A stretch of DNA of 64,000 bases from Candidatus Eiseniibacteriota bacterium (GCA_029262235.1 JAJCZU010000002.1:1142927-1206926); one strand, 5' to 3'; positions 2,471 to 40,867 are shown, counted from the stretch's first letter. Program-made: numbers and translations. Notes: generated from the sequence alone by a model not told the origin.

Positions 2471-3569
2471 ATGCCGGACGTCAGAGAAATCGAACAGGAA
2501 CTCGAGTCGAGCCGCACTCGCATTGACGAGCTCGAAGGTTATCTTTGACATTTCCAAACGCATCGCGCACATCGCGCAGCTAGAGGAAAAGATGACGGCC
2601 CAGGACTTCTGGGACCATCAGGCGAAAGCACAGGAAACCACGCGCGCACTCTCTTCGCAGAAGCGCATCGTCGATGAGTTCACGAAGGTGAAGACGGCGC
2701 ACGAGGAAACGGCGATCCTGCTCGAAATGGCGCAGGAAGAGTCGGACGAAGACACGATGCGCGAGGTCGAAAAGGGTCTGCGCCAGCTGACCGTGCTCGT
2801 CACCGATCTCGAAACGAAGAGTCTGCTCGGCGCGCCCGAAGATTCCGGGAATGCCATCATCAATATCAATCCCGGCGCCGGCGGAACGGAATCGCAGGAC
2901 TGGGCCCAGATGCTCCTTCGCATGTATCAGCGATGGGGCGAACGCCGCGGGTTCAAGCAGAACCTGATCGATATCTCCGCGGGCGACGAAGCGGGAATCA
3001 AAAGCGCCACCCTCGAAATGGAGGGTGATTACGCGTACGGATTTCTGCGCTCGGAAGCGGGCGTGCATCGCCTCGTTCGCATTTCGCCTTTCGACGCGGC
3101 GCATCGAAGACACACGTCTTTCGCGTCGGTCGCCGTCTTCCCCGAATCGGAAGAGATCGAAGAAGTGGAGATCCTCGATTCGGATCTCCGCGTCGACACG
3201 TTCCGATCGAGCGGGGCGGGCGGCCAGCACGTCAACAAGACCGATTCCGCGGTCCGCATCACGCACCTTTCGACGAACATCGTCGTCACGTGCCAGAGCG
3301 AGCGCTCCCAGCATCGAAATCGGGCGAACGCGATGAAAGTGCTGAAGGCACGTCTTCTGCAACAGCGCCTCGAGGAGGAAGCGCAGAAATCCGCGGAGCG
3401 CGAAGGGGAGAAGAAAGAGATCGCGTTCGGGAATCAGATCAGGTCGTACGTTTTCCAGCCGTACACGCTCGTGAAGGATCACCGGACCAATACGGAGGTC
3501 GGCAACGTGCAGGGTGTCATGGACGGCGATATTGAAGCATTCATAGAGGCGTACCTGCGAAGAAAGTAG
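2471..3569 (+). CDS. prfB: peptide chain release factor 2, expressed by programmed +1 frameshift (frame 0 2471..2545, +1 frame 2547..3569)
   Basis: ATG at 2471 encodes 25 codons (MPDVREIEQELESSRTRIDELEGYL) ending at an in-frame TGA inside CTT TGA C (2543-2549); the +1 frame continues DISKRIAH... and contains the RF2-type SPF and GGQ motifs. Confidence 0.9.
2534..2549 (+). promoter_or_regulatory. programmed +1 ribosomal frameshift site of prfB (internal SD-like GAAGG, then UAU CUU UGA C)
   Basis: Sequence gaaggttatctttgac read directly; it matches the classical RF2 autoregulatory slippery site CUU UGA C with an upstream SD-like element. Confidence 0.8.
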
Positions 3570-3633
3570 GCGCCGCGTTCCGTTTGACGCGCCCAATTCG
3601 TCTCCTTATATTGGGGCGACTACGGAGGAGATC

Positions 3634-5109
3634 ATGGCAGACGAAAAACAGTTGATCAAAGTGCGGTACGACAAGAGAGCGATGCTCGAAGAACTGGGCG
3701 TCAACCCGTATCCCACGAAGTACGACAGGGATACGATGGCGGCCGCCGTGCACGAAAACTTCGAGGAGTGGTCAGCGGAGGAACGTCTCGTTTCGATCGC
3801 CGGCCGTCTCATGACCGTTCGCAAAATGGGGAAAGCCTCGTTCGCGAATCTGAAGGACCGGTCGGGTACGATTCAGATCTACGTGACCACGGACAACGTC
3901 GGCGCGGACGCCTACACGATCTGGAAGCGGCTCGAGGGGGGCGATCTCGTCGGCGTACGCGGTATCCCGTTTCGCACACAGAAGGGCGAGATCTCGCTGC
4001 AGGTCAGGGAGTTCTCGGTGCTCGCGAAGTCCCTTCGCCCGCTGCCCGAAAAATGGCACGGTCTGAAGGACAAGGAAACCCGGTACAGGCAGCGCTACGT
4101 CGATCTCATCGTGAACGACGACGTGCGCGCCGTGTTCGAGAAGCGGGCGCTCATCGTGCGTGTCGTCAGGAACTATCTCGACGAGCGCGGGTTTCTCGAA
4201 GTAGAGACGCCGATCCTGCAGCCCCTGTACGGCGGCGCCTCGGCGCGGCCGTTTACGACGCATCACAACACTTTGGACATGAAGCTGTTCCTCAGGATCG
4301 CGGACGAGCTCTACCTGAAGCGTTTGATCGTCGGCGGATACGAAAAAGTGTACGAGATCGGAAAAGACTTTCGAAACGAGGGGATGGACAAGACGCACAA
4401 CCCCGAGTTCACGCAGCTCGAACTGTACGAGGCTTACGCCGACTACAACACCATGATGGAGCACGTGGAGAACATCATGCGTGCGATCGCCATGGCCCTG
4501 CACGGGAGCACGACGATTACGTTCCAGGGGCGCGAAAATGATCTCGGGAAGCCGTGGACACGCCTTTCCTTCGTCGACGCGCTCTCGGAAAAGGTCGGGA
4601 AGGACGTGCTCGCGCTTTCGAACGACGAGCTTCGGGCGGCGGCGAAAGAGCGCCACATCGAACTCCCGGACGAAGCGTCGAACGGCATGATCATGGCGGA
4701 ACTCTTCGACGTGCTCGTGGAACCGGGGATTCAGGACCCGACGTTCGTTCTCGATTTTCCGAAGGAGATATCGCCTCTCGCGAAAGAACGCCAAGGCCGC
4801 CCCGGTGTGGTGGAGCGGTTCGAACCGTATTTGTGCGGAATGGAGATCGGAAATGCGTTCTCGGAGCTGAACGACCCCGTGGAGCAGCGCAGGCGCTTCG
4901 AAGCGCAGCTCGAACTCCGGGGGCCCGAGAGCGAGGAAGCGCAGCAGCTGGACGAGGATTATCTCCGTGCGCTCGAATACGGCATGCCGCCGACGGGCGG
5001 GCTCGGGATCGGCATCGACCGGATCAGCGTGGTCTTCGCGGACCAGCCCTCGATCCGGGACGTGATCCTGTTCCCGCAGATGAGACCCGAGACCGCTCCC
5101 TCAAAGTAG
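3634..5109 (+). CDS. lysS: lysyl-tRNA synthetase (class II)
   Basis: 491 aa; N-terminal OB anticodon-binding region followed by class II catalytic core; conserved prfB-lysS gene order; GGAGGAG before the ATG. Confidence 0.9.
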   Translation: MADEKQLIKVRYDKRAMLEELGVNPYPTKYDRDTMAAAVHENFEEWSAEERLVSIAGRLMTVRKMGKASFANLKDRSGTIQIYVTTDNVGADAYTIWKRLEGGDLVGVRGIPFRTQKGEISLQVREFSVLAKSLRPLPEKWHGLKDKETRYRQRYVDLIVNDDVRAVFEKRALIVRVVRNYLDERGFLEVETPILQPLYGGASARPFTTHHNTLDMKLFLRIADELYLKRLIVGGYEKVYEIGKDFRNEGMDKTHNPEFTQLELYEAYADYNTMMEHVENIMRAIAMALHGSTTITFQGRENDLGKPWTRLSFVDALSEKVGKDVLALSNDELRAAAKERHIELPDEASNGMIMAELFDVLVEPGIQDPTFVLDFPKEISPLAKERQGRPGVVERFEPYLCGMEIGNAFSELNDPVEQRRRFEAQLELRGPESEEAQQLDEDYLRALEYGMPPTGGLGIGIDRISVVFADQPSIRDVILFPQMRPETAPSK

Positions 5110-5116: not shown

Positions 5117-6352
5117 ATGGGCTACGAGTTCTTCATCGCGAAAAGGCACATCAAGTCGCCCAGCCGCTTCGGCTTCGTGCCGATCATTACGCTGATCTCG
5201 ATTCTCGGCGTCTTCGTCGGGGTCGCTTCGCTGATCGTCGTTCTTTCCGTCATGAACGGCTTCGAAACCGAGGTGAAGTCGAGGATCGTGGGCACACATG
5301 CCCATGTCATCCTGCTGAAGTTCGGGAACGAGCCGATCGAACCCGATGCCGCCCTGATGACGACCGTGCGCGAAACGCCCGGTGTTACCGCGAGCGCGCC
5401 GTTCGTCTATTCCAAGGCGATGATTCAGGTCGGCAAGGAGCAGGACGGGATCGTCATCAAAGGCGTCGATCCGGAACAGGAAGACGCCGTGTCGGATCTG
5501 CTGCGCCGCACGTCGCCGCCCGACGCACGCCTGCAGTGGGAGGACGGCGCCATGCCCCCTGTGCTGCTCGGTGAAGAGATCGCGCTGAACCTCGGCGCCA
5601 CGCTCGGCGAGACGATCGTGCTCGCATCGTTTCAGAACACGTCGCGCAACCCGTTCGGCGCCGTCCCGAAGATGCGTCGCTTCCGCGTGCAGGGGACGTT
5701 CGACTCGGGCATGTACGAATACAATTCGACTCTACTATTGATGCCGCTCCGCGCGGCGCAGGACTTCTTCGGCCTGGGCGACAACGTGACCGGCATCGCG
5801 ATCAATGTCGAAGACGCGTACGCCGCCCCTGAAATCGCCGCGCAGGTGGTCGCGCGCGTCGGCAGCCCGCCGTACAGGACGAACAACTGGATTCATTTGA
5901 ACCGCACGCTCTTTACGTGGATGGAAACGGAAAAACGGGTGATGTTCATCATCCTGGCTCTCGTGGTTCTCGTGGCCGCGTTCAACATCGCGAGCACGCT
6001 GATCATGGTCGTCATGGAGAAAACACGCGAGATCGGTGTTCTCAAATCGATGGGCGCCACGCTCCGCAGCATTCTGATCATTTTCGTCTTGGAGGGCGTG
6101 ACGATCGGAGGGATCGGCACGCTGCTCGGATGCATCGGGGGGTGGGGGACCTGTGTCCTGATCGATCGCTATCAGATCATTCCGCTTCCCTCGGACATCT
6201 ACTTCATCGATTCTCTCCCCGTGAGCCTCGAATGGACCGACGTGGCCCAGGTCGCGGTGGCGGCCATGGTGATCTGTCTCTTCGCGACTCTCTATCCCGC
6301 GTGGAAAGCCTCTCGTCTCGAGCCGATCGAGGCGATCCGGGTGGACGGCTGA
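5117..6352 (+). CDS. lipoprotein-release ABC transporter permease (LolC/LolE family, FtsX-like)
   Basis: 411 aa; N-terminal TM helix, large periplasmic loop and C-terminal TM bundle typical of FtsX/LolCE permeases; immediately followed by a LolD-like ATPase. Confidence 0.8.
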   Translation: MGYEFFIAKRHIKSPSRFGFVPIITLISILGVFVGVASLIVVLSVMNGFETEVKSRIVGTHAHVILLKFGNEPIEPDAALMTTVRETPGVTASAPFVYSKAMIQVGKEQDGIVIKGVDPEQEDAVSDLLRRTSPPDARLQWEDGAMPPVLLGEEIALNLGATLGETIVLASFQNTSRNPFGAVPKMRRFRVQGTFDSGMYEYNSTLLLMPLRAAQDFFGLGDNVTGIAINVEDAYAAPEIAAQVVARVGSPPYRTNNWIHLNRTLFTWMETEKRVMFIILALVVLVAAFNIASTLIMVVMEKTREIGVLKSMGATLRSILIIFVLEGVTIGGIGTLLGCIGGWGTCVLIDRYQIIPLPSDIYFIDSLPVSLEWTDVAQVAVAAMVICLFATLYPAWKASRLEPIEAIRVDG

Positions 6353-6353
6353 T

Positions 6354-7055
6354 ATGAGTTACATCGTCGAAACGAAAAACCTCAGCAAGTCGTACCGGAC
6401 GGGCGATCAGTCGCTCTCGGTGCTCGAAGACATCGACCTGCAGGTCAGTCAGGGAGAAATTCTGTCGATCGTGGGAACGTCCGGCGCCGGCAAGAGCACG
6501 CTGCTGCACGTGATCGGTACGCTCATCCGCCCGACGACGGGCGAGGTTCTGATCGACGGCCAGGATGTATTCAGACTCTCCGATCACAAGCTTTCGCGCT
6601 TTCGCAACGAACGCATCGGGTTCGTGTTTCAGTTTCACCATCTGCTCCCGGAGTTCAGCGCGGAAGAGAACATCATGCTTCCGCTTCTGATCGGGGGAGC
6701 GCGCGAAGGCGACGCACGGAAGCGGGCGCGCGAACTGCTGCACTCCGTGTCTCTCGAAGCGCGCGCATCGCATCATCCGTCCGAACTCTCCGGCGGCGAA
6801 CAGCAGCGTATCGCCGTAGCGCGTGCGCTTGCGACGAAACCCGCCGTGGTGCTGGCCGACGAACCGTCGGGCAATCTCGACGAAGACACGAGCGAAGAAC
6901 TTCACCAGTTGATATGGGACGTCCGGAGCGAAACCGGGCAGGCCTTCGTGATCGTTACCCATGACGCCCTCCTCGCCGACCGCGCCGACCGCAAGGTCGT
7001 GCTGCACGCGCACCGGCTCGCGACGGATCCGGGTCCCGTGAAAGTGGGCGCATGA
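6354..7055 (+). CDS. lolD: lipoprotein-release ABC transporter ATP-binding protein
   Basis: Walker A GTSGAGKST, ABC signature LSGGEQQR, Walker B VVLADEP. Confidence 0.85.
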   Translation: MSYIVETKNLSKSYRTGDQSLSVLEDIDLQVSQGEILSIVGTSGAGKSTLLHVIGTLIRPTTGEVLIDGQDVFRLSDHKLSRFRNERIGFVFQFHHLLPEFSAEENIMLPLLIGGAREGDARKRARELLHSVSLEARASHHPSELSGGEQQRIAVARALATKPAVVLADEPSGNLDEDTSEELHQLIWDVRSETGQAFVIVTHDALLADRADRKVVLHAHRLATDPGPVKVGA

Positions 7056-7657
7056 TGAAATGCCAGATCTGCTCCGAGCGCGAGGCCCGGGTTCACTACA
7101 CGGAGATGAAGGACGACGAAGTACGTACGCTGCGTCTTTGCGAACAGTGCGCCGAGGCACGCGGATTCACGAAGATGGAGAAGAAACCCGAATTCAGCCT
7201 GCCCGATCTCCTGGCCGGCATGGCCGAGGACAAATTCGCGGGGACGGAAACCGAAGCGGCCCCTCTCACGTGCGAGCGCTGCGGTCTCACGTACCCCGAA
7301 TTCAAGAAGACCGGGCGCCTCGGCTGCGGGGAGTGCTATGAAGCCTTTGCCGCCCCGCTCCTGCCGCTCCTGAAGCGGATTCACGGGAGCGAGAACCACG
7401 TGGGGAAAGTCCCGGCGGCCTCGCGGGAAACCGACCGGCGCCCCCCCCGGGAGGTCCCTCGCAAGGTCCCCGTGGAGCCTCCCGAGCCCGGGGAGTCCCG
7501 GGAGACGGATGAGGTCCGGGAAACGCAGGAAACCCGCATGGCGCGTCTGGAGGACCTCAGGCGCCAGCTCGACCGCTGTGTCGACGCGGAGGACTTCGAG
7601 CGCGCGGCGGCCATCAGGGACCGGATTCAGCGACTGGAGGAGTCCCGTGGTGCCTAG
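7052..7657 (+). CDS. mcsA: McsA-like protein (UvrB/UvrC-motif protein, putative arginine kinase activator)
   Basis: Two CxxC pairs (CQIC...CEQC and CERC...CGEC) plus a C-terminal UVR-like helix (EDFERAAAIRDRIQRLEE); ATG overlaps the lolD stop (ATGATGA); directly precedes mcsB. Confidence 0.7.
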   Translation: MMKCQICSEREARVHYTEMKDDEVRTLRLCEQCAEARGFTKMEKKPEFSLPDLLAGMAEDKFAGTETEAAPLTCERCGLTYPEFKKTGRLGCGECYEAFAAPLLPLLKRIHGSENHVGKVPAASRETDRRPPREVPRKVPVEPPEPGESRETDEVRETQETRMARLEDLRRQLDRCVDAEDFERAAAIRDRIQRLEESRGA

Positions 7658-8714
7658 AGCGCCCTGGCCCGAGCCCGACTGGATGTCCGGAGAAGGCCCG
7701 GAGTCCGTCACCGTTCTTTCGACGCGGATACGTCTCGCCCGCAATCTGACCGGCCATCCGTTCACTCATCGTGCGGAGGAAGAGGAGCGCGGGGAGATCC
7801 TCGAGGATGTCCGGGAAGCGGCCCGCGCGGCACGGTCACTCGCCACGCCGCGCATTCTCCGCCTCGACCGGACGTCGACCCTCGACCGGCAGTATCTCGT
7901 CGAACGTCATCTGGTCTCTCCCGACCTCGCCAACGCCCGCGGACCGCGCGCCGTTGCGGTGGGAAAAGGGGAGACTTTGAGCGTAATGATCAACGAAGAA
8001 GACCATTTGCGGATCCAGGGCCTCTTATCCGGGTTTCAACTAAGGAATGCCTGGAATCTCGTCGATAAATTGGACGAGGATTTGGGGACGAATCTGGACC
8101 TGGCGTTTTCCCCGAAATGGGGATACCTGACCGCCTGCCCGACGAATACGGGTACCGGTCTTCGCGCATCGGTCCTGATTCATCTCCCGGGGCTCGTTCT
8201 CACGAAGCAGATCGGCAAGGTACTGCGAGGCATCTCGCAGGTGGGCCTCGCGGTCCGCGGCATGTTCGGAGAGGGCACGGAAGTCATGGGGAACTTTTTC
8301 CAGATTTCCAACCAGACCACTCTGGGCCTCAGTGAGAACGAAGTGATCGAAAGTCTCGGTCGGGTGACCCGCCAGGTCATCGATCATGAACAGAGCGCTT
8401 CCGAGGTACTGCTCAAGAGCGCTCCTCATCAGATCGAGGACAAGGTGTTTCGCGCGTACGGGATTCTTCGGCACGGCCGCGTCATTTCTTCGCAGGAAGT
8501 CGTGAGCATGACTTCGGCATTGCGATTCGGATTCGGTCTCGGCTTTCTGCGGGACCGGCTCGACGCGCACCGCCTGAACCGTCTCATGATCGAGACACTC
8601 CCGGCGCATCTTCAGCGCGCGAACGGGACGAGGCTCGATCAGGCGGAACGGGATTACCGGCGCGCCGCATTCGTTCGCAGCCTGCTCGGCGAAGAGACGG
8701 ACGCAGAGGCGTAA
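7647..8714 (+). CDS. mcsB: protein arginine kinase (ATP:guanido phosphotransferase family)
   Basis: Phosphagen-kinase-like catalytic domain; GTG start at 7647 or 7650 preceded by GGAGGAG (7636-7642) and overlapping the mcsA stop; ATG at 7683 is an alternative. The ORF-track start at 7509 is rejected because it overlaps mcsA. Confidence 0.8.
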   Translation: MVPRAPWPEPDWMSGEGPESVTVLSTRIRLARNLTGHPFTHRAEEEERGEILEDVREAARAARSLATPRILRLDRTSTLDRQYLVERHLVSPDLANARGPRAVAVGKGETLSVMINEEDHLRIQGLLSGFQLRNAWNLVDKLDEDLGTNLDLAFSPKWGYLTACPTNTGTGLRASVLIHLPGLVLTKQIGKVLRGISQVGLAVRGMFGEGTEVMGNFFQISNQTTLGLSENEVIESLGRVTRQVIDHEQSASEVLLKSAPHQIEDKVFRAYGILRHGRVISSQEVVSMTSALRFGFGLGFLRDRLDAHRLNRLMIETLPAHLQRANGTRLDQAERDYRRAAFVRSLLGEETDAEA

Positions 8715-8716: not shown

Positions 8717-8745
8717 TTGTGCCTGCCGTGGGGAGTGGGTATATT
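8717..8745 (+). promoter_or_regulatory. candidate sigma70-type promoter upstream of clpC (-35 TTGTGC, 17-bp spacer, -10 TATATT)
   Basis: Hexamers and spacing read directly in the mcsB-clpC intergenic region; no experimental support. Confidence 0.3.
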
Positions 8746-8788: not shown

Positions 8789-11272
8789 ATGCACGATCGA
8801 TTTACAGAACGCGTCCGCAAGGTCATGTATCTTGCGCGTGAAGAAGCAGGCCGCTTGCAGCACGACTACATCGGAACAGAACATCTGCTTCTCGGCATCG
8901 TTCGCGAAGGAGAGGGGATCGCCGCCACGGTGCTCCATAATCTCGGCCTGGATCTCGATCAGATCCGACAGGCGGTCGAGAACATGGTATCGGGGAGCGG
9001 GGGAACGCTCACGATCGGCGAGATTCCGTTTACGCCGCGCGCCAAGCGTGTGCTCGAACTCGCGGTGGAAGAAGCGCGGCTGCTGAGCCATAACTACGTC
9101 GGCACGGAACATCTGCTGCTCGGCCTCATTCGCGAAGGCGAAGGGGTTGCGGCGCGCGTGCTGATCGACCTCGGCGCGGACAAGAAGAAAGTACGCGAGG
9201 AGACGCTCAAGCTTCTCGGCGGCCATCCCGTCGGCAACACGCAGGCGCAGGCTCCGCAGAAAAGTGAAACGCCCGCACTCGACCAGTTCGGGCGCGATCT
9301 CACGACGCTCGCGCGCGAAGGAAAACTCGATCCCGTGATCGGACGCAACGGCGAAATCGAACGCGTGATCCAGGTTCTCTGCCGTCGCAAGAAAAACAAT
9401 CCGGCCCTGATCGGCGAACCGGGCGTCGGCAAGACCGCCATCGCCGAAGGGCTCGCCGAGCGGATCGCTTCGAACCACGTTCCGCATCTTCTGATGAACA
9501 AACGCCTCGTGACGCTCGACCTCGCGTCGATCGTCGCCGGCACGAAATATCGCGGCCAGTTCGAAGAGCGGCTCAAGGCCGTCATGAATGAAATCCGCGA
9601 ATCCGACAACGTCATCATCTTCATCGACGAACTGCACACGATCGTCGGGGCCGGCGGCGCGGAAGGCGCCATCGACGCTTCGAACATGCTGAAGCCGGCG
9701 CTCGCGCGCGGCGAACTGCAGTGCATCGGCGCGACCACGCTCGACGAATACCGCAAGCACATCGAAAAGGACGGCGCGCTCGAGCGTCGCTTCCAGCCGA
9801 TCACGATCAACCCGCCGACCGTGCAGGAGACCATCCAGATCATCCGCGGACTGCGTGACAAGTACGAAGCGCATCATCGCGCCGAGATCACGGACGATGC
9901 GATCACGGCCGCCGTCAAGCTGTCTGATCGCTTCATCAACGACCGCTTCCTGCCCGACAAGGCAATCGACATTATCGACGAAGCGGGTTCGCGCGCGCGC
10001 CTCAGCGTGAGCGAGATCCCGAAGGACCTGAACGACATCGAGCGCAAGCTGAACCAGGTCACGCAGGAAAAAGAAGCGGCGATCTGTTCGCAGGAATTCG
10101 AAAAAGCCGCCGCGCTCCGCGACCAGGAGAAGGATCTCCGGAACCAGCTCCTCAATTTCCAGAAGGACTGGGACGTGCAGAAGAAAGAGGACCGCGCCGT
10201 CGTCGATGTCGAAGACGTCGCGCAGGTCATCTCCGCGATTACGGGGATCCCGGTGCAGAAGCTCGAACGGACGGAGAGCGAAAAGCTTCTCCATATGGAA
10301 GACGGACTGCAGACGAAAGTCATCGGTCAGGCCGAAGCGGTCACGGCGATTTCGAAAGCGATTCGCAGAAACCGCGCCGGACTGCAGAATCCGAACCGCC
10401 CGATCGGGTCGTTCATCTTCCTCGGACCGACCGGTGTCGGGAAAACGGAACTCGCGCGCGTCATGTCCGAATTCCTGTTCGACGACCGCGATTCGCTGAT
10501 CCGGATCGACATGTCCGAATACATGGAAAAATTTGCCGTGAGCCGTCTCGTCGGAGCGCCTCCGGGATACGTGGGATATGAAGAGGGCGGCCAGCTGACG
10601 GAGAAGGTCCGCAGAAAGCCGTATTCGATCGTGCTGCTCGACGAGATCGAGAAAGCGCACCCGGACGTCTTCAATCTGCTGCTGCAGGTGCTCGAAGACG
10701 GCCAGCTGACGGACAGCTTCGGCCGCCGCGTCAATTTCCGGAACACGGTCATCATCATGACCTCGAACATCGGGGCCCGCCAGGTCAAGCAGGGAGGCTC
10801 GCTCGGCTTCCAGAAGGCCGGCGAGGACGTCAAGCAGGGGCTTCAGAGCGGCAAGTTCATGGATGAGCTGAAGAAAACGTTCAATCCCGAGTTCTTGAAC
10901 CGCGTGGACGAAACCATTATCTTCCGTTCTCTGGTACGCGAGGATCTCGAGAAGATCGTGAACATCCTCTTCTCGGAAGTCGAAGGGCGGCTGATCGAGC
11001 ACGATTTCACCGTCGAGCTCTCGGATGAGGCGAAGGAGCTGATCGTCGACAAGGGATACGACCCGGCCTACGGGGCGCGCCCGCTTCGGAAGACGATCCG
11101 TCAGCTCGTGGAAGATCCGCTTTCCGAGGAGATCCTCGGCGGCAATATCAAGCCGGGACAGAAGATCATCATCGGCCGCAAGGGCGACGTGCTCACGTTC
11201 AAGAAGCAGAAGGTGGCCAAGCCCGCGAAGAAGGCGGTCGCCGCGCCGGCATCAGACGAAGAAGACTCGTAG
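8789..11272 (+). CDS. clpC: ATP-dependent Clp protease ATP-binding subunit ClpC
   Basis: 827 aa; duplicated N-terminal Clp repeat domains, two AAA+ modules with Walker A GEPGVGKT and [11 protein letters not shown]-like middle region. Confidence 0.9.
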
Positions 11273-11303: not shown

Positions 11304-13583
11304 ATGAGAATTTGTGGGGACGTAATTCTCAAGATCATTGCGGGGGGGAAGTCCTTTCTTCTCCCCCTTCTTTTTGCCATGCATATGCTCGCGCCGGCTC
11401 TCGCAGGCGCGCAGACCGTGCAGTCGATCGACGTCAGAGGCGCGACGCGGATCAAGGCCGCATCGGTCGTCAAGACGTTCGGGATCCAGCCGGGTGACCG
11501 GTACTCGGGCGACGAAATCGCCGAGGGGATCCGCAACCTCTACGCTACCCGCCAGTTCCGGACCGTGGCAATCGAGCGCCGGGCGCTCGACGGCGGCGAC
11601 TTCGCTCTCACGATCGAGATCGAAGAGCGCACCGTGCTCGGAGACTTCTCCTACCAGGGCAACGACAAACTCAAAAAAGACGACCTGAAAGAGGAAACGA
11701 TCCTGCGTCGCGGGCTCGTGCTCTCGGACCGCTCTCTCTTTCGCGAAAAAGTCCGTATCCAGAATCTCTACAAGGAGAAAGGGTACAGGAGCGCCACTGT
11801 AGAGTGGGAGCTTGCTGAGGCCGATACCGGCGGGCGCCAGTCCGTCGTCTATCGGATCGACGAAGGCAACAAGGTCAAGGTGAAGAAGGTCGTTGTGCAG
11901 GGCGCGGACAAGCTCGGCGAGGGCAAAGTCCGCGGCGAGATGAAGACGAAGCCAGACAACTGGTATCGAAGCGGCGACTTCAAGGAAGAGGAATTCGAAG
12001 GGGACAAGACGCTGATCGAGCGTCTCTATGCGAAGAACGGTTATCTGGATGCCCGCGTCGATTCGACGACGGTCGTGGTGGCGAAGAACGGCAAGGACCT
12101 GACGGTCAAGGTGTTCGTGACCGAGGGCGAGCAGTTCCGCATGGGCAGCGTCAGGTTCGAGGGGAATGAACAGTTCGAAACCGACGTGCTCCGGCGCACG
12201 ATGAGACTGCGCCCCGGCGATGTATTCGATCAGGAAAAGTACGAGTTCTCGATCGGCGAACTCTACGGCGTGTATTCCGAAGAGGGATACATCTTCACGA
12301 ACATCATCCCCGAGCGAACGCCCAAGGGTCAGGTCATCGATATCGCTTTCTATATTACCGAGGGCGATCCCGCGCGAATCGATCGCGTCAACATCGCGGG
12401 CAACAACAAGACGAAAGAGCGCACGATCAGGCGCGAACTCGTCGTGGCGCCGGGCGATCTCTTCAAGCGCTCCCGGATCATCCGGTCGCAGCGTGAACTC
12501 ATGCAGCTCGGATTCTTCCAGGACATTCGCTTCGACTATCAGCCCGTGCGCGGCACCGACCGGATCGACATCACGTTCGATGTCGTGGAGCGGACGACCG
12601 GCGAAGCGAGCATGGGGGCGGGATTCAGCTCGCTCAATGGAGCCACCGGGTTCCTGCGACTGTCGCAGGGGAACCTGTTCGGCGGCGGGGAACGCGTGAA
12701 CCTCACGTGGGAATTCGGCGACTTCCAGCAGATCGAACTTTCGTACACCGAACCCTGGCTTTTCGATACACCGACGTCCGCCGGCTTCGACATCACCTCG
12801 GTGCGGCGCAACTGGGACTCGTACGTCGAGAAGCGAAAGGGGGGCGGGGTGCGCCTCGGCCGCCGCCTGCCGTGGCTCGATTATTCGCGAGTGGACGCCG
12901 CGTATCGGATCGAAGAACGCACGATCGACCCGGACGAGGACGCGAGTGAATCCGTGCAGAACGCTGCGGGAACGCGCACGCTTTCGTCGACACGACTTTC
13001 GTTCACGCGCAATTCCACCGACCGGCTGTTCCATCCGACGAGCGGCTCGGTCAACATTCTCGTAGGCGAATGGGCGGGCGGGATTCTCGCCGGCTCGACC
13101 GACTACCAGCAGTACGAAGTGGAAACGCGGTGGTATTACCCGTCGTTCTGGAAATTCTTCCTGGGGCTGCGCGCACGGATCGGTGTCGTGGACGGACTCG
13201 ACAAACCATCCACCGTACCGCTTTACAAACGCTATCGCCTGGGCGGCACCGGAGTCTGGGGGCTGCGGGGATACGACGACCGCGCGGTCGTACCGGACGG
13301 AAACTCGTTCGACTTCGGCGGGCGCACCATGTTGATTCTGTCGGCTGAATACAAATTCCCGATCGCGGATCCGTCGATTTTCGGCCTGTTCTTCTTCGAC
13401 GCCGGCAATTCATGGAACAGCTTCGAAGAGATTCGGCCTAACGATTTGAAGCGCGGCGCCGGATTCGGGGTCCGTTTCCAGATCCCGATGCTGGGCCAGA
13501 TGGGCTTCGATATGGGATACGGACTCGACAAGGACGGCGGAGGAGCCTGGGAACCCCACTTCCAGCTCGGCTCGCTCTTCTAG
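11304..13583 (+). CDS. bamA: outer membrane protein assembly factor BamA (Omp85 family)
   Basis: 759 aa; N-terminal signal-like segment, POTRA-repeat region, C-terminal beta-barrel ending in aromatic F; the exact start is uncertain. Confidence 0.85.
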   Translation: MRICGDVILKIIAGGKSFLLPLLFAMHMLAPALAGAQTVQSIDVRGATRIKAASVVKTFGIQPGDRYSGDEIAEGIRNLYATRQFRTVAIERRALDGGDFALTIEIEERTVLGDFSYQGNDKLKKDDLKEETILRRGLVLSDRSLFREKVRIQNLYKEKGYRSATVEWELAEADTGGRQSVVYRIDEGNKVKVKKVVVQGADKLGEGKVRGEMKTKPDNWYRSGDFKEEEFEGDKTLIERLYAKNGYLDARVDSTTVVVAKNGKDLTVKVFVTEGEQFRMGSVRFEGNEQFETDVLRRTMRLRPGDVFDQEKYEFSIGELYGVYSEEGYIFTNIIPERTPKGQVIDIAFYITEGDPARIDRVNIAGNNKTKERTIRRELVVAPGDLFKRSRIIRSQRELMQLGFFQDIRFDYQPVRGTDRIDITFDVVERTTGEASMGAGFSSLNGATGFLRLSQGNLFGGGERVNLTWEFGDFQQIELSYTEPWLFDTPTSAGFDITSVRRNWDSYVEKRKGGGVRLGRRLPWLDYSRVDAAYRIEERTIDPDEDASESVQNAAGTRTLSSTRLSFTRNSTDRLFHPTSGSVNILVGEWAGGILAGSTDYQQYEVETRWYYPSFWKFFLGLRARIGVVDGLDKPSTVPLYKRYRLGGTGVWGLRGYDDRAVVPDGNSFDFGGRTMLILSAEYKFPIADPSIFGLFFFDAGNSWNSFEEIRPNDLKRGAGFGVRFQIPMLGQMGFDMGYGLDKDGGGAWEPHFQLGSLF

Positions 13584-13727
13584 CGACGCCGCTTGAACTT
13601 ACCTGCCCGCATTGCCACAATGGAGTGCCTGTCAGGGAACCCGGCGCGATCAGCCCGTGTTTCCCCCGCAGCACATCATGCATGCCCGTGAGAAACGCAT
13701 TCTCATGCCAATTAGGAGGCGTAGTAT

Positions 13728-14252
13728 ATGAAATGGGGAATGATCGGAATCGCCCTGACGGCTCTTCTGCTCTCGACCGGAGACGCGCTCGCTGAGTCAA
13801 AAATCGGGTATATCGATTCGGCGCGCATTTTCGCCGAGTACAAAGGGACCGAGGACGCACAGCGCACCTTCGACTCCGAGGTGGAGCAGTGGGAGCAGCA
13901 GGCGCAGGGCCTCAAGACGCAGCTCGACTCGCTCGAAGGCGAGTATCAGCGCCAGAGCCTGATGCTCTCGGAGACGCGCAAGAGAGAGCGCCAGCAGGAG
14001 ATCCTGACGAAGCGCCAGGAGTACGAGACCTTCGTACAGTCCGTCTGGGGCCCGCAGGGCAAGCTCGCCGTGAAGAATTCGGAACTGGTCCAGCCGATCG
14101 TGGAACTGATCAACGTCATTCTGCAGCGTCTGGGCGTGGAAGAGGACTATGCGATCGTGTTCGACGCCTCGCTGGGGGGGATCGTCTACGCAGCCGAAGG
14201 AATCGATCTGACGGACAGAATCATCGAGGAGCTCAATCAAGGCGTGCAATAG
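13728..14252 (+). CDS. skp: periplasmic chaperone Skp/OmpH
   Basis: 174 aa; signal peptide followed by a coiled-coil-rich sequence; conserved position between bamA and lpxD; AGGAGG before the ATG. Confidence 0.8.
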   Translation: MKWGMIGIALTALLLSTGDALAESKIGYIDSARIFAEYKGTEDAQRTFDSEVEQWEQQAQGLKTQLDSLEGEYQRQSLMLSETRKRERQQEILTKRQEYETFVQSVWGPQGKLAVKNSELVQPIVELINVILQRLGVEEDYAIVFDASLGGIVYAAEGIDLTDRIIEELNQGVQ

Positions 14253-14366: not shown

Positions 14367-15419
14367 ATGAAGCTATCTGAAATCGTGGAGCGCGTCGGAG
14401 GAAAACTCCGCGGCGACGGTTCTATCGAGATCACCGGTGTGGCGGGAATTCGCGAAGCGCAGGAGGGCGATATCACCTTTATTGCGGACTCGCGTTATGA
14501 AGCTTTTCTGGCTTCGACCCGCGCCTCGGCAGTGATCCTCGCGAAAAACGGGGACCTCGGTGATATCGACAAAGCCGTTGTCATCGTGAACGAGAATCCA
14601 TACGTCGCGTTCCTGAGAGCCATTGAAATCTTCTCGCCCCGCGATCACGACGATCCGCGGGGAGTGCATCCGACTGCCGTGATCGGCGAGGGCGTCGAAC
14701 TCGGCGAACGGATCACGATCGGCGCGCACGTCGTCGTGGAAGACCACTGCGCGATCGGTGCCGGAACGCGGATCCTTGCGGGAAGCTATATAGGATTCCG
14801 ATCGCGGGTCGGCGCCGACTGCATGATCTTTCCGAACGTAACGGTGCGCGAAGATTCGGCGATCGGCGACCGCGTGATCATTCACAGCGGCACGGTTGTG
14901 GGGTCGGACGGTTTCGGCTTCGCCACGACCGGTGGAAAGCACACGAAGATTCCGCAGATCGGGCGCGTCGTGATCGATGACGATGTCGAGATCGGTTCGA
15001 ACGTTTCGATCGATCGCGCGACAACCGGAATCACGCACATACACAGCGGCACGAAGATCGACAACCTCGTGCAGATCGCGCACAACGTCGTGATCGGCGA
15101 GAACTCGCTCATCGTTGCGCAGGTCGGGATTTCCGGCAGCACGGAAATCGGAAGAAACGTGACAATCGCCGGACAGGCCGGAGTCATCGGCCACATCACG
15201 ATCGGGGACAACGTACAGGTTGCAGCGCAGTCGGGGGTCGTCAAGTCGGTCCCGGCGAATACACAGGTGAGCGGCTTCCCCGCGAGAGAGCACTCTGTCA
15301 GCCGGCGCATCTGGGCGGCCATTGCGAAGCTGCCGGACCTCGTGAAGACGATCAAACGCCTCTCGAAGCGGGTCGATGAGCTCGAAAAGCAGCTCGACTC
15401 CAAATCGATCTCCCAATAA
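14367..15419 (+). CDS. lpxD: UDP-3-O-acylglucosamine N-acyltransferase
   Basis: 350 aa; left-handed beta-helix hexapeptide repeats with an LpxD-type N-terminal domain. Confidence 0.9.
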
Positions 15420-15439
15420 TTCAATAAGGGTTTCACCAC

Positions 15440-16762
15440 TTGCGCGAAAATCAGAGAACGATCGAGAGAGAAGTCACGTTCAGCGGCGTCGGACTTCATA
15501 CGGGCGTGGCGGTCGACATGCGTTTCCGTCCGGCGCCCCCGAACACGGGCATCAAATTCCATCGCACGGATCTCGGAGTCGAGATCGTGGCGGATATCGC
15601 GAATGCGCCCGACCTGGCGGGAAGCATCCGTCGCACGATCCTCGGATCGGGCGACGAGCGTGTCAGCACGGTCGAACACGTCCTGGCGGCCGCCGTCGGA
15701 CTCGGCATCGACAACATGGTGATCGATCTGAACGCCGAGGAACCGGCCGAGCCGGATGGAAGCGCGCTTCCTTATGTGGAACTGCTGCGCACCGCCGGTC
15801 TCGTCGAGCAATCCGAAAAGCGCTTCTTTCTCGAGATCCGCAAACCCATCTCACTGCAGGAAAACGGCATTGAACTGATTGCGCTGCCGCACGACGGCTT
15901 CCGCATCAGCTATACGCTGCAGTACGACGACCCCGCGATCGGAACGCAGCACATGGTGATCGATGTCGACGAAGAGACGTTCATCGACCAGATCGCGCCG
16001 GCGCGCACGTTTGCGCTCGGCTCCGAAGTCGCCGCGCTGAAAGAGATGGGTCTTATCAAGGGCGGCAGTTACGACAATGCGATCGTCGTAACCGAGGGAG
16101 CTACGAAAAGCAACGAACCGCTTCGTTTCGACGACGAGTTCGTACGCCATAAAATTCTGGATTTGATCGGCGATCTTTTCCTGACCGGACTTCCCATCAA
16201 GGGCCACATCATTGCGCACAAATCCGGACACTCGACAAACGTGAAACTGGCGCGGCTCCTACGCAGCTACGCAGAAACCAAGTACGGTCCCACAATGAAG
16301 CTGAGGCACGAGACCCCCATGCAGACACAATTCGACATTCATGAAATCATGAAGATTCTCCCGCACCGATACCCGTTTCTCCTCGTCGACAAGATCATCG
16401 ACCTGGGGCCGAAACATGTGACGGCTATCAAGAACGTTACGATGAACGAACCGTTCTTTATGGGACATTTTCCGGGGCACCCGATCATGCCGGCCGTTCT
16501 CATCATCGAGGCGATGGCGCAGGCAGGGGGGATTCTGCTGCTGAACTCGGGCGGCAATCCCGCGGAAAAACTCGTATACTTCATGGGAATCGATAACGCG
16601 AAATTCCGAAAGCCGGTCCTTCCCGGCGATACGCTCCGATTCGAGCTGAAACTCATCAGGCTGAAGACCCGTATCTGCAAGATGCGCGGGGAAGCCTACG
16701 TGGGGGATGATCTCGTGGCGGAAGCCGACCTTTTGTCAACCATCGTCGATCGACAGGAATAG
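15440..16762 (+). CDS. lpxC: bifunctional UDP-3-O-acyl-GlcNAc deacetylase / 3-hydroxyacyl-ACP dehydratase (LpxC-FabZ fusion)
   Basis: 440 aa; N-terminal LpxC-like domain and C-terminal FabZ hot-dog domain (PFFMGHFPGHPIMPAVLIIEAMAQ); TTG start. Confidence 0.9.
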   Translation: MRENQRTIEREVTFSGVGLHTGVAVDMRFRPAPPNTGIKFHRTDLGVEIVADIANAPDLAGSIRRTILGSGDERVSTVEHVLAAAVGLGIDNMVIDLNAEEPAEPDGSALPYVELLRTAGLVEQSEKRFFLEIRKPISLQENGIELIALPHDGFRISYTLQYDDPAIGTQHMVIDVDEETFIDQIAPARTFALGSEVAALKEMGLIKGGSYDNAIVVTEGATKSNEPLRFDDEFVRHKILDLIGDLFLTGLPIKGHIIAHKSGHSTNVKLARLLRSYAETKYGPTMKLRHETPMQTQFDIHEIMKILPHRYPFLLVDKIIDLGPKHVTAIKNVTMNEPFFMGHFPGHPIMPAVLIIEAMAQAGGILLLNSGGNPAEKLVYFMGIDNAKFRKPVLPGDTLRFELKLIRLKTRICKMRGEAYVGDDLVAEADLLSTIVDRQE

Positions 16763-16770
16763 AAAGCAAC

Positions 16771-17565: not shown

Positions 17566-17586
17566 ACCGGAGCTTCGGTTCATCTC

Positions 17587-40300: not shown

Positions 40301-40867
40301 CGCGTCATCGATCCCGAGAAGGCCCGCTTTGATATTGCGCGTGTCCTGGCACGTTTCGAGCAGCAGATAATCCGCGCCGCCTTCGATAAGACCGATGGCC
40401 TGATCGCGGTACGACGCGCGCAGTTCCTCGAACGTGACGCCCCCCGTAACCGAAATGGCCTTCGTGGTCGGCCCCATCGATCCGCACACGAACCGCAGGC
40501 GCCCGGGCGCATCGAACTCCGCGCACGCCTCGCGCGCGATTTCCGCGGCAAGGCGATTGATTTCGATCGCGTGGTCCTGCAGATCGTATTCCGCGAGCAC
40601 GATGCTCGCCCCGCCGAACGTGTTCGTCTCGATGATGTCCGCGCCCACCGCCAGGTAGTCACGATGCAGATCGAGCACGACGTCGGGCCGCGTTCTTACG
40701 AGGTTTTCGTTACACCCTTCGAGCGCCGGACCGCCGAAATCGTCTGCAGCAAGATTCCGCGCCTGGAAGCCGGTGCCGGTGGCCCCGTCCATGACGAGAA
40801 TCCGTTCGTCGAATGCGTCGTAAAGCGCCGCCTCGCGGGCCGCGCGGTCCTGTTGTGTTTCACTCAT
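37394..40867 (-). CDS. metH: cobalamin-dependent methionine synthase
   Basis: 1157 aa; Hcy-binding and pterin-binding barrels, B12-binding DxHxxG (DVHDIGKN), C-terminal reactivation domain. Confidence 0.9.

What the first reader, a model, noticed from the sequence alone, without database searches (positions are those of the whole stretch)
5117..8714. Lol lipoprotein-release genes translationally coupled to mcsA-mcsB
The lolD stop and mcsA start overlap (catgatga at 7051-7058; TGA 7053-7055, ATG 7052-7054), and mcsB starts at a GTG overlapping the mcsA stop. This puts an envelope lipoprotein-sorting transporter and a stress protein-quality-control kinase in a single coupled transcript that appears to begin at prfB-lysS. 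I am not aware of this linkage as a described operon.
Basis: seen in the sequence. Interest (0 to 1): 0.45.

Follow-up and report, generated by a model that had tools for sequence, protein, structure and literature searches.

The report
Conserved Lol–McsAB–ClpC operon in diderm bacteria
The lipoprotein-export genes lolF-lolD really do run straight into the arginine-kinase genes mcsA-mcsB, and this junction is kept across many deep lineages of uncultured two-membrane bacteria, so a "Gram-positive" protein-degradation system is a long-standing resident of an outer-membrane gene cluster.

Summary
The lolD stop (TGA 7053-7055) overlaps the mcsA ATG (7052-7054). mcsB most likely starts at GTG 7650 or 7647, 8-11 nt inside mcsA. 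All gene identities hold by HMM and PDB matches; the permease is LolF-type.

A 4-nt overlap is ordinary in this genome. The conservation is not. In 48 of 48 informative loci from Eisenbacteria-like, Latescibacterota, Gemmatimonadota and Raymondbacteria genomes, plus one Zixibacteria contig looked up separately, lolD sits directly upstream of mcsA. That is as invariant as the subunit pairs lolF|lolD and mcsA|mcsB, while the outer flanks vary.

Omnitrophota and Planctomycetota-type loci carry lysS-lolF-lolD-ilvE-mcsA-mcsB-clpC-(mlaEFD)-radA-yacL-ispD-ispF-cysE. Geobacillus and Bacillus carry lysS-tRNAs-ctsR-mcsA-mcsB-clpC-radA-yacL-ispD-ispF without the outer-membrane modules. The linkage is therefore an old inherited backbone.

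The likely operon is lysS-lolF-lolD-mcsA-mcsB, driven by a conserved promoter-like site at 3584-3612. clpC has its own conserved promoter-like site. There is no ctsR and no CtsR box.

A functional Lol-McsAB link is unproven. I found no description of the linkage in the searchable literature.

The parts
2471..3569 (+). prfB (RF2) with programmed +1 frameshift at CTT TGA C (2543-2549). It lies upstream on the same strand, 5 nt after coaE.
   Evidence: TIGR00020 499 bits against a cutoff of 370; sequence read.
3584..3612 (+). Sigma-70-like promoter candidate P_lysS (TTGACG-17-TATATT).
   Evidence: 10 of 12 matches. Same hexamers and 17-nt spacing with a divergent spacer in L003, L006, L011 and L013.
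3634..5109 (+). lysS, class II lysyl-tRNA synthetase; probable first gene of the coupled unit.
   Evidence: NF001756 683 bits; 51% identical to the Geobacillus LysS that lies upstream of ctsR-mcsAB.
5117..6352 (+). lolF-type (LolC/E family) lipoprotein-release permease. It is the only permease gene at this locus and starts 7 nt after lysS.
   Evidence: TIGR02212 361.9 bits against a cutoff of 362.45. Best PDB matches are LolF 9w37 at 1e-61, then LolE and LolC; MacB reaches only 4e-10.
6354..7055 (+). lolD ABC ATPase, starting 1 nt after lolF.
   Evidence: TIGR02211 283.6 bits against a cutoff of 307.75. Best PDB match is E. coli LolD at 1e-65, with the FQFHHLLPEF...MPLLIG segment aligned.
7052..7055 (+). 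ATGA stop/start overlap between lolD and mcsA, the proposed termination-reinitiation site.
   Evidence: The same ATGA overlap occurs in 17 other loci (18 including the window), and 26 of 48 junctions overlap in some form. No recognisable SD lies upstream of mcsA (best match 3 nt).
7052..7657 (+). mcsA, the McsB activator, with two CxxC...CxxC zinc modules and a C-terminal UVR/coiled coil.
   Evidence: NF053706 at 5e-41, below the cutoff of this Bacillus-derived model. PDB 8wtb_B at 3.5e-26, with the Z2 cysteines aligned (residue roles from PMC11046695).
7637..7643 (+). Shine-Dalgarno GGAGGAG for mcsB, lying inside the 3' end of mcsA.
   Evidence: Sequence read.
7650..8714 (+). mcsB protein-arginine kinase (start at GTG 7650 or 7647).
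   Evidence: NF002194 409.7 bits against a cutoff of 385. PDB 8wtb_A at 1e-86 over residues 11-349. NEEDH, CPTN Cys and C-terminal D336/R339/R344 are invariant in alignment A3.
8717..8745 (+). Promoter-like element P_clpC (TTGTGC-17-TATATT) in the 74-nt mcsB-clpC spacer.
   Evidence: Hexamers conserved with a divergent spacer in L002 and L003. TTGACA-17-TAGTTT or TACTTT at the same place in 8 Latescibacterota- and Gemmatimonadota-labelled loci and TTGACA-17-TAGCTT in 2 more.
8789..11272 (+). clpC, a full-length ClpC-type AAA+ unfoldase.
   Evidence: 1074 bits, colinear with B. subtilis ClpC 3j3s including the LGF/VGF loop. NTD at 1e-50 to ClpC/ClpC1 NTDs, including 5hbn.
11304..14252 (+). bamA (11304-13583) and skp (13728-14252).
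   Evidence: TIGR03303 506 bits; Skp at 2e-7. clpC|bamA is adjacent in 36 of 40 FCB-type loci.
14367..23326 (+). Lipid A and Kdo genes continuing the cluster: lpxD, lpxC-fabZ fusion, lpxA, an oxidoreductase, lpxB, waaA, lpxK.
   Evidence: Pfam hits.

Best explanation
The window comes from an uncultured Eisenbacteria-like diderm bacterium of the FCB group. Its genes lysS-lolF-lolD-mcsA-mcsB are packed with gaps of +7, +1, -4 and -8/-11 nt. They most likely form one transcript from a conserved sigma-70-like promoter upstream of lysS, with read-through from polA-coaE-prfB also possible. clpC-bamA-skp-lpx... follows behind a second conserved promoter-like element.

mcsA has no usable Shine-Dalgarno sequence. 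It is probably translated by ribosomes that terminate lolD at TGA and restart on the overlapping ATG. mcsB has its own strong Shine-Dalgarno.

Each module should work as its characterised homologues do. A homodimeric LolF with LolD extracts lipoproteins from the inner membrane. McsA activates McsB, which phosphorylates arginines. The ClpC N-domain reads phospho-arginine and unfolds the marked proteins for ClpP. Because ctsR and CtsR boxes are absent, McsAB is expressed constitutively together with housekeeping and envelope genes. It is not a heat-shock regulon member here.

The lolD-mcsA junction is an inherited feature of an old gene-order backbone, lysS...mcsA-mcsB-clpC(-radA-yacL-ispD-ispF). 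Diderm phyla carry outer-membrane modules (lolFD; bamA-skp-lpx or mlaEFD) intercalated into this backbone. Monoderm Bacillota carry it without them.

Shown: sequence geometry, gene identities, and conservation of adjacency and of the promoter-like hexamers. Inferred: co-transcription, reinitiation, biochemical activities, and the evolutionary direction.
For: No terminator-like or promoter-like site lies between 3613 and 8714, apart from a weak hairpin inside lolD. There are no Rfam elements in the window.

Adjacency counts in FCB-type loci: lolF|lolD 48/48, lolD|mcsA 48/48, mcsA|mcsB 50/50, mcsB|clpC 44/46, clpC|bamA 36/40. By contrast, lysS|lolF is 20/44 and coaE|prfB is 3/37. The lolD-mcsA gaps are overlapping in 26 of 48 loci and at most 6 nt in 33 of 48. 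The adjacency spans 12 McsB clusters at 60% identity and 17 at 70%. A Zixibacteria contig shows tyrS-prfB-lysS-lolF-lolD-mcsA-mcsB-clpC.

PVC-type loci carry lysS-lolF-lolD-ilvE-mcsA-mcsB-clpC-...-radA-yacL-ispD-ispF-cysE. Geobacillus and Bacillus carry lysS-tRNAs-ctsR-mcsA-mcsB-clpC-radA-yacL-ispD-ispF-gltX-cysE.

Conserved promoter-like hexamers are shown. ctsR, CtsR boxes and CIRCE are all absent.
Against: No transcript data exist, so an unrecognised internal promoter inside lolD cannot be excluded. Three relatives have lolD-mcsA gaps of 92-145 nt.

The Shine-Dalgarno comparison between overlapping and spaced junctions was weak (mean match 3.6 nt against 4.0 nt). Dependence on reinitiation therefore rests mainly on this window's own sequence.

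The loci were chosen as the 80 best McsB matches out of more than 560, so more distant McsB-bearing lineages were not sampled. NCBI taxon labels on MAGs are noisy.

The neutral reading, in which gene order is inherited without any functional link, does not by itself explain why the junction is as invariant as subunit pairs. It also does not explain why different outer-membrane modules flank clpC in the two superphyla.
Confidence: 0.6

Rival explanations
1. The linkage is functional. In diderm phyla the McsAB/phospho-arginine-ClpC(P) pathway would be part of outer-membrane biogenesis control. It could clear un-exported lipoprotein or OMP precursors from the cytoplasm, or carry out regulated proteolysis of a rate-limiting envelope enzyme such as the adjacent LpxC. 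Co-expression with Lol, Bam, Skp, Lpx and Mla would then be selected for.
For: The lolD|mcsA adjacency is as invariant as the intra-complex pairs, while outer flanks decay. mcsAB-clpC is bracketed by outer-membrane modules on both sides in two superphyla, with different downstream modules: bamA-skp-lpxD-lpxC/fabZ-lpxA-lpxB-waaA-lpxK in FCB-type loci, and an AsmA/YhdP-like protein (below threshold) plus mlaE-mlaF-mlaD in PVC-type loci. ctsR is absent, so the known regulatory target of McsB is missing. From general knowledge, not tested here: ClpCP degrades MurAA, the first committed peptidoglycan enzyme, in B. subtilis, and FtsH degrades LpxC in E. coli.
Against: In PVC-type genomes ilvE, an amino-acid aminotransferase, sits between lolD and mcsA and is itself coupled to mcsA by a 1-nt gap. 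The same backbone exists in monoderm Bacillota without any outer-membrane genes. Verrucomicrobial loci keep ilvE-mcsA-mcsB without lolF or clpC nearby. No sequence feature of McsA, McsB or ClpC departs from the Bacillus proteins.
Confidence: 0.25
2. The genes are adjacent but expressed separately. mcsAB would be driven by a promoter embedded in the 3' part of lolD, possibly stress-inducible and of a type the sigma-70 scan does not see. On this reading the ATGA overlap is only genome compaction.
For: 4-nt overlaps are common in this window between unrelated genes. Three relatives have spacers of 92-145 nt with good SD sequences. Promoter types of these phyla are uncharacterised, and the scan's hit count does not exceed its shuffled controls.
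Against: No promoter-like site was found in lolD. Recognisable, conserved -35/-10 pairs do occur upstream of lysS and clpC in the same genomes, so the sigma-70 consensus is evidently used there. mcsA lacks an SD in this window.
Confidence: 0.1
3. The ABC transporter is not a lipoprotein-release system but another MacB/FtsX-type exporter, so the reported Lol link to McsAB would be a mislabel.
For: Both NCBIfam equivalog scores fall below their curated cutoffs: 361.9 against 362.45 for the permease and 283.6 against 307.75 for the ATPase. No LolA was looked for, and no activity is known for this lineage.
Against: The Lol models are by far the best hits. The permease matches LolF, LolE and LolC at 1e-61 to 1e-46 but MacB only at 4e-10. 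The ATPase's best PDB match is E. coli LolD. The gene sits in a cluster with bamA, skp and lpx genes.
Confidence: 0.05

Closest known systems
ctsR-mcsA-mcsB-clpC-radA-disA (clpC) operon of Bacillus and Geobacillus, the class III heat-shock operon
   Same: The order mcsA-mcsB-clpC and the tight mcsA/mcsB junction match. McsB is 43-44% identical to the Bacillus and Geobacillus proteins, and ClpC aligns colinearly over its full length (1074 bits). lysS is the nearest upstream protein-coding gene in Geobacillus. In PVC-type relatives radA-yacL-ispD-ispF-cysE also follow clpC.
   Different: There is no ctsR and no CtsR operator. lolF-lolD occupy the position held by tRNA/rRNA genes plus ctsR in Bacillota. 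clpC is followed by bamA-skp-lpx rather than radA. The host has an outer membrane.
LolCDE (E. coli) and LolDF (Acinetobacter, Helicobacter) lipoprotein-release transporters
   Same: One MacB-type permease plus the LolD ATPase, with permease-then-ATPase order. Best structural matches are LolF and E. coli LolD (LolDF background in PMC13575116 and PMC13350855).
   Different: The genes are embedded between lysS and mcsA. Their scores sit just under the NCBIfam equivalog cutoffs. No biochemical data exist for these phyla.
prfB-lysS operon of E. coli (from general knowledge)
   Same: prfB with the canonical +1 frameshift is immediately followed by lysS on the same strand.
   Different: Here the unit continues without a terminator into lolF-lolD-mcsA-mcsB. 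A conserved promoter-like site also separates prfB from lysS.
bamA-skp-lpxD-fabZ-lpxA-lpxB cluster of Proteobacteria, and the large outer-membrane gene cluster of diderm Firmicutes (PMC5007114, listed)
   Same: bamA, skp, lpxD, lpxC/fabZ, lpxA, lpxB, waaA and lpxK lie in one same-strand block.
   Different: A cytoplasmic proteolysis module (mcsAB-clpC) and the Lol genes are part of the block. I found no description of this.
Chlamydia trachomatis ClpC and its separate mcsAB operon (PMC10128030)
   Same: This is a PVC-superphylum diderm with ClpC that acts on arginine-phosphorylated substrate, plus McsAB orthologues.
   Different: In Chlamydia mcsAB is unlinked from clpC, is flanked by tRNAs, and was suggested to be horizontally acquired. 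The loci here show a linked arrangement shared across PVC-type and FCB-type phyla, which looks vertically inherited.

Membership tests
McsB protein-arginine kinase | Whole-protein match above the curated family cutoff. | tested here: met
   NF002194 409.7 bits against a cutoff of 385; PDB 8wtb_A, 6tv6 and 6fh1 at about 1e-86.
McsB protein-arginine kinase | Catalytic NEEDH motif and catalytic cysteine (defined in PMC11046695). | tested here: met
   N116-E117-E118-D119-H120 and C164-P165-T166-N167 are invariant in the 9-sequence alignment A3 and aligned to B. subtilis McsB.
McsB protein-arginine kinase | C-terminal dimerisation domain (McsB_C). | tested here: met
   The alignment to 8wtb_A runs to residue 349 with ERDxRRA conserved. 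The 96%-identical P0001 carries PF27454. The role of these residues in phospho-arginine binding is from memory and was not tested.
McsB protein-arginine kinase | Arginine-kinase activity on protein substrates. | not testable with these tools
   PMC11046695 states that the activity of Gram-negative homologues has never been identified.
McsA activator | Two four-cysteine zinc modules (Z1, Z2) and a C-terminal coiled coil/UVR. | tested here: met
   C4/C7/C30/C33 and C74/C77/C92/C95 are read from the translation. Z2 aligns to B. subtilis C81/C84/C99/C102 and the UVR segment to residues 143-176 of 8wtb_B.
McsA activator | Score above the NCBIfam equivalog cutoff. | tested here: not met
   NF053706 140.5 bits against a cutoff of 210. 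The model name (PrRKinActvMcsABac) suggests it was built on Bacillus-type sequences. The shortfall reflects divergence and a low-complexity linker (residues about 125-160); no domain is missing.
ClpC AAA+ unfoldase | ClpC-type N-domain with duplicated repeat, two AAA modules, short middle domain and a ClpP-binding loop. | tested here: met
   Colinear with B. subtilis ClpC over 2-797 at 1074 bits, with LGF aligned to VGF. NTD at 1e-50 to ClpC/ClpC1 NTDs, including the phospho-arginine complex 5hbn. ClpB and ClpA models fall below their cutoffs.
LolCDE/LolDF lipoprotein-release transporter | LolC/E/F-type permease (MacB fold with periplasmic domain). | tested here: inconclusive
   TIGR02212 361.9 bits against a cutoff of 362.45, which is 0.5 bit short. 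Best PDB hits are LolF at 1e-61, LolE at 8e-52 and LolC at 2e-49, against MacB at 4e-10.
LolCDE/LolDF lipoprotein-release transporter | LolD ATPase. | tested here: inconclusive
   TIGR02211 283.6 bits against a cutoff of 307.75. Best PDB match is E. coli LolD at 1e-65, ahead of other ABC ATPases.
LolCDE/LolDF lipoprotein-release transporter | Single permease gene (homodimeric LolF type) as opposed to a lolC plus lolE pair. | tested here: met
   There is only one permease ORF between lysS and lolD here, and only one permease hit adjacent to lolD at the 48 informative FCB-type loci.
LolCDE/LolDF lipoprotein-release transporter | Partner LolA, and release of lipoproteins. | not tested
   LolA was not searched for in the window. 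Activity cannot be tested with these tools.
Class III heat-shock (CtsR) operon | ctsR as first gene, and CtsR heptad-repeat operator. | tested here: not met
   tblastn with Geobacillus CtsR hit only the Bacillota loci. There is no RGTCAAANANRGTCAAA within 2 mismatches in 64 kb, and no CIRCE either.
Translationally coupled gene pair | Stop and start codons overlapping or within a few nucleotides, on the same strand, with no intervening terminator. | tested here: met
   ATGA at 7052-7055; 33 of 48 relatives have a gap of at most 6 nt; no terminator-like site.
Translationally coupled gene pair | Downstream translation depends on upstream translation. | not testable with these tools
   This needs a reporter or premature-stop experiment. 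The only indirect support is the absence of an SD before mcsA.

The most novel reading that the evidence does not exclude
mcsA-mcsB-clpC is an ancestral resident of a bacterial envelope-biogenesis supercluster. On this reading the Bacillota ctsR-mcsA-mcsB-clpC-radA operon is what remains of that cluster after the outer-membrane modules (lolFD upstream; bamA-skp-lpx or mlaEFD downstream) were lost. It would be a gene-order fossil of the diderm-to-monoderm transition. Its counterpart claim is that in living diderm phyla the phospho-arginine/ClpC pathway is functionally tied to outer-membrane assembly.
Probability: 0.2. Interest if true: 0.75.

Novelty: new variant of a known kind. Interest (0 to 1): 0.5.

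Why it matters
McsAB-ClpC is treated in the literature as a Gram-positive system. [quoted passage not shown] Another notes homologues only in "some" Proteobacteria, with activity never shown (PMC11046695).

The data here show something different. The system is widespread in FCB- and PVC-type diderm phyla. It lacks its classical regulator CtsR. It also sits in a fixed position between the Lol genes and the Bam/Skp/Lpx or Mla genes.

This yields two concrete, testable ideas. The first is that phospho-arginine-dependent proteolysis has an envelope-related or constitutive housekeeping role in diderm bacteria. The second is that a backbone of at least ten genes (lysS...mcsAB-clpC-radA-yacL-ispD-ispF-cysE) is shared between Bacillota and Omnitrophota-like bacteria, differing mainly by intercalated outer-membrane modules. 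That pattern bears on how monoderm and diderm envelopes are related.

If it turns out to be only inherited gene order, it remains a useful synteny marker and a caution against reading function from translational coupling.

Tried and rejected
- CIRCE and CtsR-box searches of the whole window found nothing. An Rfam scan of all 64 kb also found nothing. No known heat-shock operator or leader RNA therefore explains regulation.
- I tested whether overlapping junctions lack an SD while spaced ones have one. The difference was small (3.6 nt against 4.0 nt mean match), so I dropped it as a general argument.
- I looked for a LolD-McsA fusion in L057, where the ORFs seemed to run together. It is not a fusion. 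McsA there is N-terminally truncated, lacking the first zinc module, and overlaps the lolD end.
- Protein searches with McsB alone and with a mixed profile returned only close relatives of the query sequences.
- Nine of the ten allowed literature searches, on mcsB with lol genes, lysS, diderm phyla and synteny terms, found no description of the linkage.
- I considered whether the Aminotran_4 gene pabC upstream of lysS in Geobacillus is related to the ilvE insertion in PVC loci. I treated this as a coincidence of fold family and did not pursue it.
- Structure prediction was not run, because every protein aligns end to end with solved homologues.

Full report
**1. What is in the sequence**

The first 23 kb of the window is a single same-strand run of genes:
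- a PolA-like ORF (82-1866; not HMM-tested)
- coaE (1863-2465)
- prfB (2471-3569, with the canonical +1 frameshift site CTT TGA C at 2543-2549)
- lysS (3634-5109)
- a LolC/E-family permease (5117-6352)
- lolD (6354-7055)
- mcsA (7052-7657)
- mcsB (7650 or 7647 to 8714)
- clpC (8789-11272)
- bamA (11304-13583)
- skp (13728-14252)
- lpxD, an lpxC-fabZ fusion, lpxA, an oxidoreductase, lpxB, waaA and lpxK

The lolD stop TGA (7053-7055) and the mcsA ATG (7052-7054) share ATGA.

mcsB has in-frame GTGs at 7647 and 7650. Both lie upstream of the mcsA stop (TAG 7655-7657), so the genes overlap by 11 or 8 nt. A strong GGAGGAG (7637-7643) sits 6 nt before GTG 7650. The tryptophan encoded upstream of the alternative ATG 7683 is invariant in McsB homologues. 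The GTG start is therefore the better call.

Intergenic distances from lysS to mcsB are +7, +1, -4 and -8/-11 nt. Larger spacers lie before lysS (64 nt) and before clpC (74 nt).

**2. Are the gene names right?**

McsB passes the curated NCBIfam cutoff (409.7 against 385). It aligns over residues 11-349 with B. subtilis McsB (1e-86). The NEEDH motif, the CPTN cysteine and the C-terminal ERDxRRA segment are all conserved. The motif definitions come from PMC11046695.

McsA matches B. subtilis McsA (3.5e-26). It has both four-cysteine modules and the C-terminal UVR/coiled coil. It falls below the cutoff of the NCBIfam equivalog model (named PrRKinActvMcsABac).

ClpC is colinear with B. subtilis ClpC (1074 bits), including the ClpP-binding loop. 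Its N-domain matches ClpC N-domains at 1e-50, among them the phospho-arginine complex 5hbn.

The permease is closest to solved LolF structures (1e-61). LolE and LolC come next, and MacB reaches only 4e-10. The ATPase is closest to E. coli LolD (1e-65). Both Lol genes score just under the NCBIfam equivalog cutoffs. "Lol" is therefore very probable but not formally met. With a single permease gene, the transporter is of the homodimeric LolDF type (background).

**3. Is the overlap more than chance?**

By itself it is not. The same 4-nt overlap joins several unrelated same-strand pairs in this window, for example at 1863-1866, 22268-22271, 28737-28740 and 33202-33205.

The conservation is the signal. 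A scan of one genome per species with McsB returned more than 560 loci, of which the 80 best were kept. I mapped the window's proteins onto them by tblastn.

The informative loci are labelled Eisenbacteria, Latescibacterota, Gemmatimonadota/Longimicrobiales, Raymondbacteria or unclassified. Adjacency counts in them are:

| Pair | Adjacent / informative |
|---|---|
| lolF\|lolD | 48/48 |
| lolD\|mcsA | 48/48 |
| mcsA\|mcsB | 50/50 |
| mcsB\|clpC | 44/46 |
| clpC\|bamA | 36/40 |
| lysS\|lolF | 20/44 |
| coaE\|prfB | 3/37 |

The lolD-mcsA junction is thus as fixed as the junctions within the two protein complexes, while the outer flanks have been reshuffled. The stop and start overlap in 26 of 48 loci (ATGA in 18). 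The gap is at most 6 nt in 33 of 48, and only three gaps exceed 50 nt.

Taxon labels on MAGs are noisy, so I also counted McsB sequence clusters. Direct adjacency occurs in 12 clusters at 60% identity and 17 at 70%. A Zixibacteria contig found separately shows tyrS-prfB-lysS-lolF-lolD-mcsA-mcsB-clpC. The nearest relative of the window (96% McsB identity) is a MAG labelled Gemmatimonadetes. The next nearest are Eisenbacteria.

**4. A wider backbone**

In loci labelled Omnitrophota, Planctomycetota-type and some Verrucomicrobiota, a branched-chain aminotransferase gene (ilvE) lies between lolD and mcsA. It is present in all 23 loci that carry a ~1-kb insert between lolD and mcsA, and also upstream of mcsA in L072, where no lolD was detected. 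In L017 it ends 1 nt before mcsA.

Downstream of clpC these loci carry radA-yacL(PIN)-ispD-ispF-cysE. The junction with clpC varies:
- directly adjacent in L066;
- after about 1 kb encoding a secreted protein in L025;
- after an AsmA/YhdP-like protein (below threshold) plus mlaE-mlaF-mlaD in L017 and in the P0281 contig.

Geobacillus and Bacillus show dusB-lysS-[8-9 tRNA genes, with or without an rRNA operon]-ctsR-mcsA-mcsB-clpC-radA-(disA)-yacL-ispD-ispF-gltX-cysE. Geobacillus LysS is 51% identical to the window's LysS.

The order lysS...mcsA-mcsB-clpC-radA-yacL-ispD-ispF-cysE is therefore shared between monoderm Bacillota and PVC-type diderms. The diderm versions differ mainly by intercalated outer-membrane modules: lolFD before mcsA, and Mla or Bam/Skp/Lpx genes after clpC. 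The Bacillota version has ctsR and stable-RNA genes at the first junction.

CtsR is absent from every diderm locus and from the whole window. CtsR boxes and CIRCE are also absent.

**5. Transcription signals**

The only sigma-70-like match in the first 14 kb lies between prfB and lysS: TTGACG-17-TATATT at 3584-3612. The same hexamers, with the same 17-nt spacing but divergent spacer sequence, are found before lysS in L003, L006, L011 and L013. That pattern is what a real promoter would show.

The mcsB-clpC spacer holds TTGTGC-17-TATATT (8717-8745). It is conserved in L002 and L003 with a divergent spacer. Eight Latescibacterota- and Gemmatimonadota-labelled loci have TTGACA-17-TAGTTT or TACTTT at the same place, and two more have TTGACA-17-TAGCTT. 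clpC-bamA spacers, used as a control, have nothing comparable.

No terminator-like structure on the + strand lies between lysS and clpC, apart from a weak hairpin inside lolD. Rfam finds nothing in the window.

The most economical model has two units. The first is P_lysS driving lysS-lolF-lolD-mcsA-mcsB, with read-through in from prfB and out into clpC both possible. The second is P_clpC driving clpC-bamA-... In Longimicrobiales and PVC-type loci the mcsB-clpC gap shrinks to 0-14 nt, so there clpC belongs to the same unit.

**6. How it most likely works**

Shown: the geometry, the identities and the conservation.

Inferred:
- mcsA has no recognisable SD (best match 3 nt). It is probably translated by reinitiation of ribosomes finishing lolD. 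mcsB uses its own SD.
- The proteins act as their homologues do. LolF2D2 releases lipoproteins. McsA-activated McsB phosphorylates arginines. ClpC recognises the mark.
- Without CtsR, McsAB is expressed together with constitutive translation and envelope genes.

I put 0.6 on the reading that the junction is an inherited, co-expressed arrangement with no demonstrated physical or pathway link.

The main rival (0.25) is a real functional tie between phospho-arginine/ClpC proteolysis and outer-membrane biogenesis. In its favour are the invariance of the junction and the fact that different outer-membrane modules bracket mcsAB-clpC in two superphyla. Against it are the ilvE insertion, the Bacillota backbone without outer-membrane genes, and the entirely canonical sequences of the three proteins.

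Two minor rivals remain: an unseen internal promoter (0.1) and a non-Lol MacB-type exporter (0.05).

**7. Comparison with what is known, and novelty**

All components are known families. The arrangement is a new variant of the mcsA-mcsB-clpC operon: it lacks ctsR, is fused to lysS-lolFD, and is embedded in an outer-membrane/LPS cluster.

The literature I could search treats McsAB-ClpC as essentially Gram-positive. It regards the Chlamydia genes as possibly horizontally acquired (PMC10128030). It mentions Gram-negative homologues only in some Proteobacteria, with unknown activity (PMC11046695). No paper linked mcsAB with lol genes or described the backbone synteny. That search covers open-access papers and bioRxiv only.

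**8. Limits**

- There are no expression data.
- The loci sampled are the McsB relatives closest to the query.
- Other McsB-bearing phyla, including diderm Firmicutes, could not be examined.
- The direction of evolution, whether outer-membrane modules were lost in Bacillota or inserted in Gracilicutes-type phyla, is not resolved by these data.

Noticed in passing
window 2471-3569 (frameshift site 2543-2549): prfB carries the canonical RF2 +1 programmed frameshift: ATG 2471, in-frame CTT TGA at 2543-2548, and reading resumes at GAC 2547. The mechanical ORF list therefore starts the gene too late, at TTG 2523.
   Followed up: yes
window 3584-3612 and 8717-8745; L003, L006, L011, L013, L002: Two promoter-like -35/-10 pairs with 17-nt spacing lie before lysS and before clpC. 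Their hexamers are conserved across relatives while the spacers diverge.
   Followed up: partly
window 15440-16762: A single ORF fuses LpxC (UDP-3-O-acyl-GlcNAc deacetylase) with a FabA/FabZ-like dehydratase domain. It lies between lpxD and lpxA.
   Followed up: no
window 27106-29855: A BshC-family gene (bacillithiol biosynthesis, N-terminal and coiled-coil domains) overlaps by 4 nt a GT4 glycosyltransferase that could be BshA. This hints at a bacillithiol-type thiol in a non-Firmicute.
   Followed up: no
window 37394-42759 (minus strand): A full-length B12-dependent methionine synthase (1157 aa) is followed by a 629-aa fusion of a homocysteine S-methyltransferase domain with MTHFR.
   Followed up: no
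window 20841-23326 and 31325-34206: The outer-membrane/LPS cluster extends to waaA (Kdo transferase), lpxK, an MsbA-like ABC exporter and a GT9 heptosyltransferase. The large minus-strand ORF 20580-22445 has no Pfam hit and looks spurious.
   Followed up: partly
L017 6561-7430; 23 PVC-type loci plus L072: ilvE (class IV aminotransferase) is inserted between lolD and mcsA in Omnitrophota, Planctomycetota-type and Verrucomicrobiota loci. In L017 it ends 1 nt before mcsA.
   Followed up: yes
L017 11452-15333; L025 11441-12421; contig of P0281: Between clpC and radA, PVC-type loci carry a membrane-anchored protein with weak YhdP/DUF748 (AsmA-like) similarity, followed by mlaE-mlaF-mlaD. L025 has only a 326-aa secreted protein with no Pfam match.
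   Followed up: partly
L057 7590-7943: One Gemmatimonadetes MAG has a short McsA (about 100-117 aa) that lacks the first zinc module. It still overlaps the end of lolD.
   Followed up: partly
L085 12556-16683: In the Zixibacteria contig clpC is followed by a 1375-aa ORF with no Pfam match, where other FCB-type loci have bamA.
   Followed up: no
L082 7414-8290; L083 2735-3552; L084 2886-3731: In Geobacillus and Bacillus a cluster of 8-9 tRNA genes fills the lysS-ctsR interval, which is the position occupied by lolF-lolD in the diderm loci. L083 has about 5 kb more there, which I assumed but did not check to be an rRNA operon. The Chlamydia mcsAB operon is also reported as flanked by tRNAs (PMC10128030).
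   Followed up: partly
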